Assembly: GCA_964106645.2 (NCBI GenBank)
Contig: OZ067041.1
Source of the DNA: Podarcis pityusensis
Taxonomy: Eukaryota
Strand: one strand, 5' to 3'
DNA: 64,000 bases
Part shown: positions 32,657 to 35,600 of the stretch, one piece after another
How positions within the stretch are numbered: position 1 is the stretch's first letter
Layout: the number at the start of each line of letters is the position of its first letter
Program-made: the position numbers

Positions 32657-35600
32657 AGTTTGGGTCCTGAAGCAAACACCATTGCAATCATGAACCCATT
32701 ACCTGTAACCCAAACAGGGTGGCTGTACCATGGTTAACTCCTGAATGGCCAGTAAAAAGCTTTCATCTATCAGTTTCTTGCAACTGTATGTTGCTTAGCA
32801 TCCCTTAGGTATATCTGTGGATGGTATGATAAGTACACTGTTAGAGGAAACATATGGACAGACGATTTTACGAATGCCTTGACCAATAAAAGAGGAACAG
32901 ATCAGTAGGGGGTAACAAAGTAGCAGGTTGAGAGATTATCAGGGCATTTGATGGAGACGCCTTGTGGGACGTGGAGTGCCTGCTCTCCTCTCTCATCGGC
33001 ATAGAGGGGTCCCCTTGCGATAGGAGTCTTTGTTTGAGTAGATCCAATCTATCGAGAATAGCCTGCTGTTCTTCTGAAGGGAGTTTTCCATAAGAGAAGA
33101 TAAGATTTCTCTCTTCAGGGATATTCCAATCTCCGCTTGCAATTGGATCATTCCTCAGTGTAGCTAGATGGGCACTTGAGGTCGCAGATGGAACAGGGGG
33201 TACCCGGCTAGGTGTTTTCCCCTTTATTATAGGAACAGAAGGAGGAAACGAGCGTTCATTGCCGGTTAAGATATTGGCAAAAAGAGGTTTAACACTCGTG
33301 TCCTTAAAGACTCTTGTTGTTACAATCTTCCAGGGTGCCAGCCGATCTTTCTGTCTTGCAAGGAGATGTGGGATCCTTGCAGACTGGAAGGAGAGCATAA
33401 ATTTCCTTGGCCAGGGCGTGGCAATTAGGGGTACTACAGATATAAGATCTATCTGGAAAAAAGGAATATTTAACAAATCACGTAGGTACCCTTTAGCCAT
33501 CCTCAGGTTATTCCACCTAAGTCTGGGGGCGTCACGGGAAAAAATGGCTAGACATATTTTATTAGGTTGAAAAATCAAGGATTGCCTATTCCTTTGGGGC
33601 AGTGGCGGCCTGCATCTTGAGCTCTTAAGGTGAGATTTCTGGTCAGGTTGTCTCTTTAAGGCACTTACAAGCTGCGCAGGAGATTGATGCAAATTAGATA
33701 GCTCAGTTGAGGAAGGTAGATGAGCTAGAAGGGCCCGTGAAAGTTTATTCAATGACAAAGAAATCCCCTCCAATTCCTTGAAAATGAAGCTTAAAGTCCT
33801 GATTACCAGTTGTATTTGATCAGGTACTAATTCATGGGCAGTTTGCCCTAATGCGTCCCGTTTCAATGACGGAGGTGTAATTAGAGTGTCAGGGAGGAGG
33901 GCTTCCCTATGGCTTCCATCCCCCGCTGGATCAGCTAGCTTTTCCGGCTCTCCTTGATCATACAGAGGCCAAAAGCGGTTGTATGTTTCGACCGCAGAAA
34001 CAAGAAAGGTCACTGCAGTAGCAAAGTACATGCAAATAAAGTATTTCATATTGCACTTTAGGGATAGGTGTTCAGTTAACCATAACCACAGCCATAATTT
34101 TATGGGAGTAAAACTGAGCAAATAAATACTTGTATTATTCAGATTTTAAACCTTCTATAGAAATTACTGTCAACATTTGCAGGTTCATATTTGTTAAAAA
34201 ATAATAAAGTATAGTTTTTTTAAAATAAGCTTCTGCTACAAAAAGTAGACTACGGATAAAAAATGTCGTCTTCTTTAAATATAGCAAGATAAGATGTATT
34301 AGGAGCTGTATTTTGCCTTTGGACACATATACCACTAATGATACCTGCCAACAGATGTCTAAGAGTTTCACTACTAACAGTTATGATTTATCTAACATAA
34401 GCCAAGGAAATACGTGTCTCCAAATCTAAACATCCACCCACAGAAACGATTGTGTCAGACAGCTCTTTGTCTGTGAGAGCAATTTCGTTTTTTTTTAAAA
34501 ACAGACCCTAGCATCATTTTAACATCAGTTCTGCATATAAATTGGTGCACAGAGACCATTATTTCTGTTTTATGAGAAACAGAGCTATGTATGGAACATT
34601 TAATTTTGGAAATAACTACCTCCACAGATGGTACTGTGACAACAGCTGTCATAGTTGTCAAAGTAACCCGCATATGTGTTGCAAAAGAGTTGAAATGGTG
34701 CTCCCCCGCAGCTGTTTTATGCTCCTGTCAAACACTTTTATCAGGCTTACACTTGATCCTAAACTCGTTTGCTTGAAAGTGAGCTTGAGAATTTAGTCCT
34801 AAGCATGCTTTTTAAACAAACATTGAAGTGAATAAATAGGACGTTGCAGAGGCAGTAAATCTACAGCTCCTACGTGTATATACATTCTGGTTCAAGATAC
34901 TAGGCTGCAAGTCTCAGTCCTCAATAGTTTCTTCTTTCAGTTCAGTGGAAACAGAGCTGCACAAGGAGTCTAAGGGATATCATGTACTGAAGTCCCTTTA
35001 CCACTAAAATGAACAGAGCTCACAAAAGATCATGTGTATTCTCTGGCCCAGGGCATACTAATTCAGAGAGGGTATGTGCATAGATACTGAGCATACAGAG
35101 CTCAGAGTACATTTGGCTCCTCACTCTGTGGCCTCAGTCTGCTTTAAATATTGTATGTGTATAGATACAGCAGTATGTAACATGGTTTACATTTTGGTCG
35201 AGAATCTTGGCCTGTGTGAAAGTTTCAGTAAGGTCAGTGGAATGAAGCCTATTAAATATAAACCAGTGGGTAGATTGTTCCCATGGAGATAAAGCAGCTT
35301 GTACTGCTTCACATGCCAAAAAAAAGCCCTTCACCTACCAGAAAAGTAGATGTGCAAGCAGGGCATATCTACTATGAAACAAGTACATCTTTCCAAATGT
35401 ACACTTGCCTACTTGTGCCATCCAGTTTGGTTGTTGTTATAATTCCTTTGCTTGATCCTATAATCCACTCTACAGGTATAAGAGCTCAGGAGTTATAGCA
35501 CTTGTCCAGTGAAAGCAAAAATTCCATAAAGAAGTGTTAGGATGACTTAGTTTTCTAACTAGTGATCTCTGTAAACAGAGTTCTTAGTTCTTCACATTTT

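What the first reader, a model, noticed from the sequence alone, without database searches (positions are those of the whole stretch)
32868..34121. Uninterrupted 417-codon ORF1-like frame nested, in sense, in TMPRSS15 intron 17
Seen: a 1.25-kb open frame, twice as long as any other in the window, CpG-richer than its flanks, with no adjacent RT/endonuclease, poly(A) tail or clear TSD. Known: T-x-NRF-x-x-L, a coiled-coil and an RRM-like segment are typical of non-LTR ORF1 proteins. A solo internal ORF1 piece is atypical, because target-primed insertions normally keep the 3' end. Inference: either a young, rearranged insertion of a poorly described squamate LINE family, or an ORF1 being retained by the host.
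Basis: partly seen in the sequence, partly recalled or inferred. Interest (0 to 1): 0.72.

Follow-up and report, generated by a model that had tools for sequence, protein, structure and literature searches.

The report
Young truncated LINE ORF1 fragment in intron
The long open frame is a recently inserted, both-ends-truncated piece of the first gene of a lizard jumping element (a LINE), sitting in an intron of the enteropeptidase gene; it is open because it is young, not because the host keeps it.

Summary
On the minus strand there is a 425-codon stop-to-stop frame (32868-34145), about twice the next longest in the window (219 codons). It is CpG-richer than its flanks and has no RT/endonuclease, tail or convincing TSD nearby. 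Only 34001-32898 is real coding homology: it equals residues 42-409 of intact 588-591-aa proteins from public read assemblies (99, 92 and 87% identity). Their first 41 and last 182 residues are nowhere in the 64 kb. These proteins belong to a small family (40 representatives) with no Pfam or PDB match. Two relatives carry the family fused to LINE ORF2 pieces: one has an AP-endonuclease fragment plus an ORF2-like tail, the other has the same tail. Copies lie in three unrelated host gene contexts. Composition (54% AT) and the lack of any known domain fit the published description of the second ORF of lizard L2 elements. So this is an ORF1 fragment of a poorly described squamate LINE, probably L2. 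It is young (two private amino-acid changes) and most likely neutral. Retention by the host is not supported. How a piece lacking the 3' end arrived is unresolved. Side lead: the family carries PIP-box-like motifs at either the N- or the C-terminus.

The parts
32868..34145 (-). Open frame, stop to stop: 425 codons plus the TAA stop at 32868-32870
32898..34001 (-). The inserted piece proper: it corresponds to residues 42-409 of the intact 591-aa protein P0002. It is CpG-rich (28 CpG; observed/expected 0.49)
   Evidence: tblastn (34007..32898, 98.6% over 370 aa; the first two aligned residues mismatch); alignment; CpG
34002..34145 (-). Chance read-through of the frame into AT-rich intron sequence unrelated to the family. 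It holds the first in-frame ATGs (34049, 34031) and has 0 CpG
32868..32897 (-). Nine non-homologous codons (FLFYWSRHS) and the stop, after the 3' break of the homology
33963..33986 (-). TYNRFWPL, the family's [ST]-x-N-[RK]-F-x-x-L motif
   Evidence: (22 of 44 members)
33717..33821 (-). 35-residue helix with a heptad a/d hydrophobic pattern (coiled-coil-like), P0002 residues 102-136
   Evidence: the same homologous helix is the best window in 6 of 6 members tested; 0-9 of 100 shuffles reach it; weak PDB profile hit to a designed coiled coil, E 0.016
33270..33584 (-). Most conserved central domain of the family (P0002 residues 181-285), holding the invariant F246 and the nearly invariant W204, L214, P252, F273. 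It may have a ferredoxin/RRM-like fold (lead only)
   Evidence: 8 of 105 sites vary among P0002-4; Atlas leads
33021..33116 (-). Conserved helix E..L..S...LP..EQ..I..RL..L (P0002 residues 337-368)
   Evidence: (1 of 32 sites varies)
35874..35984 (-). Host exon encoding an LDL-receptor class A domain, with AG acceptor and GT donor
   Evidence: (Ldl_recept_a, E 1.4e-11)
32291..32423 (-). Host exon encoding the start of the SRCR domain; its acceptor is 474 nt downstream of the end of the inserted piece
   Evidence: (SRCR, E 7.1e-6)
32620..32653 (.). (AC)17 microsatellite. It is not contiguous with the inserted piece, so it probably belongs to the host intron and is not a LINE tail
   Evidence: low CpG of 32661-32897

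Best explanation
The frame is a 1.1-kb internal fragment of the first open reading frame (ORF1) of a squamate LINE, most likely of the L2 lineage. It lies in sense orientation in the enteropeptidase intron between the second LDLa exon and the first SRCR exon. The source element encodes a 588-591-aa ORF1 protein. That protein has, in order: a basic N-terminus, a T-x-NRF-x-x-L motif, a short heptad helix, a conserved central domain, a second conserved helix, and a long disordered tail ending in a PIP-box-like motif. The window copy holds only residues 42-409. The frame runs 48 codons further upstream and 9 codons further downstream into unrelated intron sequence by chance. It is open because it is young: it has two private amino-acid changes relative to its nearest intact relative, so neutral decay has not yet hit it. 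It has no ORF2, no tail and no start of its own, so it is an inert relic. Shown: the truncation at both ends, the near-identity to intact ORFs, the family, and the linkage of the family to ORF2 pieces in relatives. Inferred: the L2 assignment. Also inferred is the mode of arrival, which is either capture of a LINE cDNA or RNA fragment at a DNA break (as in endonuclease-independent L1 insertions) or ordinary target-primed insertion followed by a deletion of the 3' part.
For: (1) In one search, 3 proteins passed E 0.001 among 8000 scored candidates: P0002, P0003 and P0004 (591, 588 and 589 aa; 99, 92 and 87% identity). tblastn of these against the window matches only residues 40/42-409/410 at 34007..32898; all other hits have E 0.27 or worse. 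A family HMM run over 2235 six-frame pieces of the window finds only this frame (E 2.1e-106; next best 0.77). (2) The exhaustive HMMER search with P0002 gave 40 representatives at E 0.001 or better, 13 at 1e-10 and 5 at 1e-30, and they share one architecture. (3) LINE linkage. P0047, a Podarcis lilfordi gene model named MEF2B, has four parts in order: an SRF-TF domain, the family segment at 441-585, an Exo_endo_phos_2 fragment at 575-697 (E 9.3e-5), and a tail. P0005 joins family residues 1-361 to the same tail (63% identity over 90 aa, E 1e-32). (4) Dispersal. Family pieces lie in three unrelated host contexts: this intron, the MEF2B model, and a fusion with a WD40_2 domain in P0027. (5) In the quick tree the window copy is sister to P0002 (SH-aLRT 99). 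(6) Youth and neutrality. The window differs from P0002 at 3 of 368 positions, 2 of them private to the window. 127 of 3330 possible single-base changes give a stop, so about 86% of copies with 4 substitutions would still be open. The CpG excess stops exactly at the homology edges. (7) Among P0002-4 the variable sites avoid the central domain (8 of 105) and the second helix (1 of 32), whereas linkers vary at rates of 0.19-0.27. This is what working ORF1 copies would show. (8) L2 lead. Passages of PMC7140322 say most lizard L2 have a second ORF with no conserved domain, 54% AT, beside a GC-rich ORF2. The fragment is 54.0% AT with no domain. The ORF2-like part of P0047 is not Lys/Ile-rich (K 6.2%, I 4.6%, A 7.5%, R 6.2%).
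Against: No full-length element with an intact ORF1 followed by an EN-RT ORF2 was seen. The linkage rests on one chimeric gene model and one fused ORF (1 of the 46 other proteins shares the tail). The endonuclease hit is below Pfam's curated cut-off (22.7 against 27.4 bits). The family is small for a LINE protein: 40 representatives, and clusters of 1-8 member sequences on one contig each. One member is annotated as an ordinary gene, 'verprolin-like', in Podarcis muralis. There is no sequence similarity to any characterised ORF1. A LINE piece without its 3' end is not what target-primed reverse transcription gives. Copy number in the host genome, and the state of the orthologous site, could not be examined.
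Confidence: 0.75

Rival explanations
1. The family is a cellular, PCNA-binding nuclear protein gene rather than a LINE ORF1, and the window holds a partial DNA-level or retro-copied duplicate of it.
For: The family is small (40 representatives). Cluster sizes are low. One member is annotated as a gene in Podarcis muralis. The N-terminus is conserved and basic, and PIP-box-like motifs of the kind found in replication proteins are enriched (28 observed against 3.4 expected). There is no TE domain in Pfam.
Against: There are two independent fusions to the same LINE ORF2-type sequence, one of them next to an AP-endonuclease fragment. Fragments lie in three unrelated loci. Intact 590-aa ORFs read contiguously on 4.7-5.5-kb contigs, a size that would also fit a LINE. 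The family tree shows very deep divergence, with end branches at a median of 0.95 changes per site. Published passages describe lizard L2 ORF1 as domain-less and 54% AT.
Confidence: 0.1
2. The fragment is an ORF1-derived sequence retained (domesticated or exonised) by the host.
For: The frame is intact over 425 codons, is in sense orientation within a host gene, and holds the conserved core of the protein.
Against: Both family termini are missing. The only upstream ATGs are in unrelated intron sequence. No AG or GT lies at the homology edges. There is a stop 444 nt before the next exon. Near-identity to an intact element copy makes openness expected without selection.
Confidence: 0.04
3. It is the middle exon of a nested multi-exon gene whose first and last coding exons lie elsewhere.
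For: The homology begins and ends sharply, and the intact relatives could come from spliced transcripts.
Against: No trace of residues 1-41 or 410-591 appears in 31 kb upstream or 33 kb downstream (tblastn, word size 2, E up to 10). There is no AG before or usable GT after the edges. Host exons of another gene interleave.
Confidence: 0.02

Closest known systems
Second ORF (ORF1) of lizard L2 elements, as described in Ruggiero and Boissinot 2020 (PMC7140322; passages read)
   Same: It has no conserved domain and an AT content of 54%. It occurs in lizards, in several divergent lineages, and is associated with a Jockey-superfamily-type ORF2. That last point is my recall, based on the C-terminal motif of P0047.
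   Different: No RT was available to place the element in the L2 clade. The paper prints no sequences in the passages I read, and its supplements were closed, so identity with their ORF could not be checked.
Type II ORF1p (L1-like: coiled coil + RRM + CTD; Pfam Transposase_22). The classification is quoted in PMC4120745 (passages)
   Same: The layout is similar: an N-terminal region, a heptad helix, then a compact conserved domain that may have a beta-alpha-beta-beta-alpha-beta fold, then further C-terminal sequence.
   Different: No Transposase_22 match in any of 47 proteins. No hit to solved L1 ORF1p. The helix is only about five heptads long. There is a 180-aa disordered tail. On present evidence it falls in 'type V, unclassified'.
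Non-classical, endonuclease-independent L1 insertions (Sen et al. 2007, PMC1920257; abstract, section 11 and passages read)
   Same: It is a young LINE fragment truncated at the 3' end as well as the 5' end, with no tail and no target-site duplication.
   Different: Those are human L1. Here the element is probably a stringent-type L2. Neither the pre-insertion site nor the endonuclease preference is known, so a later deletion cannot be excluded.
PIP-box-bearing mobile-element proteins: the L1 ORF2p PIP box (titles and abstracts listed) and Pogo transposase (passage of PMC4103810)
   Same: Family members carry Q-x-x-[ILM]-x-x-[FY]-[FYL] at a terminus, e.g. Q-[TRS]-K-I-T-D-F-[FL] within the last 25 residues.
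   Different: The motif sits on the ORF1 protein, not on the enzyme. Binding is untested. The window copy has lost both termini and carries no such motif.

Membership tests
LINE (non-LTR retrotransposon) ORF1 | Physically linked, in the same orientation, to ORF2-derived sequence (AP endonuclease / RT / C-terminal domain) | tested here: met
   Met in relatives only. P0047 has the family segment at 441-585, then Exo_endo_phos_2 at 575-697 (E 9.3e-5, below the curated cut-off), then a tail. P0005 has family residues 1-361 followed by the same tail (63% identity, E 1e-32). This is not met in the window itself.
LINE (non-LTR retrotransposon) ORF1 | A full-length element with an intact ORF1 followed by an intact EN-RT ORF2 and a common 3' end | not testable with these tools
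   The contigs that encode P0002-4 could not be read.
LINE (non-LTR retrotransposon) ORF1 | Copies dispersed at unrelated loci | tested here: met
   Three contexts: the enteropeptidase intron, the MEF2B gene model P0047, and the WD40_2 fusion P0027. Copy number in the host genome was not testable.
Type II ORF1p (Transposase_22) | Match to Pfam Transposase_22 or to solved L1 ORF1p | tested here: not met
   0 of 47 proteins matched. The PDB single-sequence and profile searches gave no ORF1p hit.
Type II ORF1p (Transposase_22) | Coiled coil upstream of the RNA-binding domain | tested here: inconclusive
   By a crude heptad measure of my own, the best 35-aa window falls on the same helix in 6 of 6 members, and 0-9 of 100 shuffles reach it. 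No calibrated predictor was run.
Type II ORF1p (Transposase_22) | RRM fold of the central domain | tested here: inconclusive
Lizard L2 second ORF (PMC7140322) | No conserved domain; about 54% AT | tested here: met
   No Pfam family. GC is 46.0%.
Lizard L2 second ORF (PMC7140322) | Carried by an element whose RT groups with the lizard L2 sub-clade | not testable with these tools
   No RT sequence of this element was obtained. The amino-acid make-up of the ORF2-like part of P0047 is only a weak hint.
Endonuclease-independent (non-classical) LINE insertion | 3' truncation, no tail, no TSD | tested here: met
Endonuclease-independent (non-classical) LINE insertion | The empty ancestral site shows the 3' flank unchanged (so no later deletion), and the target deviates from the endonuclease consensus | not testable with these tools
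   No orthologous sequence was available, and the endonuclease preference of this family is unknown.
Domesticated TE-derived host gene | A complete coding unit with its own start, conserved at the orthologous site under purifying selection | tested here: not met
   Residues 1-41 and 410-591 are missing. The ATGs lie only in unrelated flank. Orthology and dN/dS were not testable.
PIP-box protein (PCNA-interacting) | Q-x-x-[ILMV]-x-x-[FYW]-[FYWLIV] at a terminus | tested here: met
   Met in relatives: 15 of 44 have it N-terminally, 8 of 44 C-terminally, none at both ends; 28 matches in all against 3.4 expected from shuffles. It is absent from the window copy. Binding was not tested.

The most novel reading that the evidence does not exclude
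The ORF1 protein family behind this fragment is an undescribed ('type V') ORF1 of L2-like LINEs. It recruits PCNA through a PIP box, and that motif has been kept while moving from the N-terminus (most lineages) to the extreme C-terminus (the squamate lineages that include the window's element). This would put clamp recruitment on ORF1p rather than on the ORF2 enzyme as in L1.
Probability: 0.25. Interest if true: 0.55.

Novelty: new member of a known kind. Interest (0 to 1): 0.25.

Why it matters
The finding itself is an ordinary, young transposon relic, and it need not be pursued as a candidate host gene. Three lesser points follow. First, public annotations name members of this family as genes ('verprolin-like' in Podarcis muralis; part of a 'MEF2B' model in Podarcis lilfordi), and they look like LINE ORF1 sequence. 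Second, the family gives a sequence handle on the domain-less second ORF of lizard L2-type elements. Third, a LINE piece without its 3' end is a candidate break-repair insertion outside mammals, if the empty site can be recovered.

Tried and rejected
1. Pfam on the frame, on its three near relatives, on 39 further relatives and on 4 more: no real family. The only strong hits were the foreign parts of the chimeras P0027 and P0047.

2. PDB sequence search with the frame and with the family profile: nothing usable. The best hits were a designed coiled coil (E 0.016) and a pyrophosphorylase (E 0.12).

3. Word-index search with the family alignment returned only the same three proteins.

4. Nested-gene reading rejected: the missing termini are not in the window and there are no splice signals at the edges.

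5. '(AC)17 is the LINE tail, joined by an internal deletion' rejected. The 237 nt between the homology and the repeat have 2 CpG (observed/expected 0.2), like the intron. They have no match to any family or ORF2-like protein and are not repeated in the window.

6. TSD: only an 11-nt 10/11 pair that does not abut the ends. The tool itself warns that such pairs are often chance.

7. Older diverged copies in the window: none.

8. Atlas leads to arthropod clusters with Baculo_FP_2nd (feature scores 0.81-0.84, below the 0.9 line) are not backed by any Pfam hit at E up to 10.

9. Not available or not done:
- The Atlas did not hold P0002 or P0004.
- Novick et al. 2009 is not held and is cited from recall only.
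- Genome contigs (bacteria and archaea) was not used, as it is irrelevant here.
- Paper supplements were closed; those of PMC7140322 may list the lizard L2 elements and their ORF1.
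Full report
**Observation**

The frame exists, on the minus strand. It is 425 codons stop to stop (34145..32871), with the stop at 32870-32868. The first in-frame ATG is at 34049.

It is the longest of 30 frames of 100 codons or more in the window; the next is 219 codons. In 100 mononucleotide shuffles the longest frame never exceeded 197 codons.

CpG observed/expected is 0.49 inside 32898-34007, against 0.19 for the window. CpG drops to 2 in the next 237 nt on one side and 0 in the next 138 nt on the other.

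**Host context**

I searched the host gene exon by exon and did not build a joined model. Pfam hits on minus-strand frames, in order, were:
- CUB: 52390-52608
- MAM: 50142-50321 and 48986-49183
- CUB: 38969-39118, 37693-37959 and 36597-37076
- LDLa: 35806-36066
- the frame itself
- SRCR: 32290-32469
- Trypsin: 25852-26046, 20580-20816, 20279-20434, 17673-17885 and 16944-17114

As I recall it, this domain order is that of enteropeptidase (TMPRSS15). The LDLa exon is 35984..35874 and the SRCR exon is 32423..32291, so the intron is 3450 nt and the frame is in sense. The intron number could not be checked. No contig in this work looked human.

**What the frame matches**

The frame has no Pfam family and no PDB relative. 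The word-index protein search scored 8000 candidates and found three proteins, all from read assemblies. They are 591, 588 and 589 aa long, 99, 92 and 87% identical to the frame, each on one contig of 4.7-5.5 kb.

tblastn of these proteins against the window matches only their residues 40/42 to 409/410, at 34007..32898. Nothing else in the 64 kb scores better than E 0.27. So the window holds an internal piece. The first 41 residues and the last 182 are absent, and the frame simply runs on into unrelated intron sequence at both ends. There is no AG before the 5' edge and no usable GT after the 3' edge.

**The family**

An exhaustive HMMER search with P0002 gave 40 representatives at E 0.001 or better, 13 at 1e-10 and 5 at 1e-30. 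Aligned, they share one architecture:
- a basic N-terminus
- often a Q-x-K-[IL]-x-[DE]-[FY]-F motif
- [ST]-x-N-[RK]-F-x-x-L, found in 22 of 44 members
- a helix with a heptad pattern; by my own crude measure it is the best window in 6 of 6 members tested, and 0-9 of 100 shuffles reach it
- a conserved central domain with invariant F246
- a second conserved helix
- a variable tail

None of the members has a Pfam family apart from foreign parts of chimeras. The family profile hits no solved ORF1p.

**Why it is a LINE ORF1**

A search with relative P0007 brought in two named Podarcis proteins.
- P0046 is 'verprolin-like' from Podarcis muralis.
- P0047 is a 1038-aa 'MEF2B' model from Podarcis lilfordi. 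It contains, in order, an SRF-TF domain, a family segment (441-585), a fragment of the endonuclease-reverse transcriptase family Exo_endo_phos_2 (575-697; E 9.3e-5, below the curated cut-off), and a tail.

The tail's C-x-C...H...C ending recalls, from memory, the C-terminus of Jockey-superfamily ORF2. P0005 joins family residues 1-361 to the same tail: 63% identity over 90 aa, E 1e-32. It is the only one of the 46 other proteins to do so. P0027 is a third chimera, with a WD40_2 segment.

Linkage to ORF2 pieces twice, and pieces in three unrelated host contexts, argue for a mobile element's ORF1 rather than a cellular gene.

**Which LINE**

Passages of PMC7140322 state three things. Most lizard L2 elements have a second ORF without any conserved domain. 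That ORF1 is 54% AT while ORF2 is about 55% GC. The ORF1s of different L2 sub-clades are not homologous to each other.

The fragment is 54.0% AT and has no known domain. The ORF2-like part of P0047 is not Lys/Ile-rich. This fits L2 but is circumstantial, because no RT was seen.

Passages of PMC4120745 give the five ORF1 types. In layout this family is nearest to type II, but it fails the sequence test, so it stands as type V (unclassified).

**Fold**

The Atlas held homologue P0046, with a poor model of its own (pLDDT 0.45).
- By features, it listed arthropod clusters carrying Baculo_FP_2nd, at scores of 0.81-0.84.
- By structure, it listed an RRM_1 cluster (TM 0.28/0.41) and an ACT cluster (TM 0.25/0.49).

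All of these are below the lines the tool gives for more than a lead. The 'RRM-like' reading is therefore open.

**Age and selection**

In the quick tree the window copy is sister to P0002 (SH-aLRT 99). It differs from P0002 at 3 of 368 aligned positions, two of them private to the window. Only 127 of 3330 possible single-base changes create a stop, so a copy with about four substitutions stays open about 86% of the time. An intact frame therefore needs no selection.

Among the three intact proteins, variable sites avoid the central domain (8 of 105) and the second helix (1 of 32), while linkers vary at 0.19-0.27. That is what working element copies would show.

**How it arrived**

This is unresolved. 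There is no ORF2, no tail, and no abutting direct repeat. The (AC)17 run lies 244 nt away across CpG-poor, unrepeated sequence.

The structure matches the four-part description of non-classical L1 insertions in PMC1920257 for the three parts I could test. A later deletion of the 3' part is equally possible without the empty site.

**Side lead**

PIP-box-like motifs occur 28 times in the 44 members, against 3.4 expected from shuffles. They are N-terminal in 15 members, within the last 25 residues in 8, and never at both ends. The sequences are related, so these are not independent counts.

The lineage of the window's element has a degenerate N-terminal site and a canonical C-terminal one. Two literature searches (listings only) found PIP boxes discussed for L1 ORF2p, not for any ORF1p. 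A passage of PMC4103810 records the Pogo transposase PIP box. The window copy has lost both termini.

**Left unchecked**

- host-genome copy number
- Dfam/Repbase
- the orthologous site
- the contigs behind the read-assembly proteins
- paper supplements
- the closed collections

Noticed in passing
Family proteins P0002-P0046 (not in the window copy): PIP-box-like motifs sit at the N-terminus in 15 of 44 members and at the extreme C-terminus in 8 of 44, never at both ends. The lineage with the C-terminal motif has a degenerate N-terminal one. This hints at a conserved PCNA-binding function on an ORF1 protein.
   Followed up: partly
P0046 and P0047 (Podarcis muralis and Podarcis lilfordi annotations): The public gene models 'verprolin-like' and part of 'myocyte-specific enhancer factor 2B' consist of this LINE ORF1 family. 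In P0047 there are also an endonuclease fragment and an ORF2-like tail. These are probably annotation artefacts.
   Followed up: partly
window 25147-25220 (+): A tRNA-Lys(CTT)-like sequence lies inside a host intron, antisense to the host gene (Rfam tRNA 41.1 bits; ARAGORN). It could be a tRNA gene or the head of a tRNA-derived SINE.
   Followed up: no
window 8862-9236 (+): A frame with a C-type lectin domain match (Lectin_C, E 7.2e-6) lies on the opposite strand, beyond the last trypsin exon. It may be an exon of a neighbouring gene.
   Followed up: no
window 31497-31633, within 30000-31250: An 18-bp unit is repeated 7.8 times (95% matches), next to a stretch whose GC rises to 0.46-0.52 in an otherwise 0.33-0.40 GC intron. 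Frames are open on both strands at 30419-30794, with no Pfam match.
   Followed up: no
window 40028-40684 (+): The second-longest frame of the window (219 codons) has no Pfam match even at E up to 1.
   Followed up: partly
window 33749, 33563, 33228 (minus strand): Three AATAAA hexamers lie inside the fragment, on the sense strand of the host gene. They could act as premature polyadenylation signals.
   Followed up: no
window 27330-27461: A 71-bp unit is repeated 1.9 times (90% matches).
   Followed up: no
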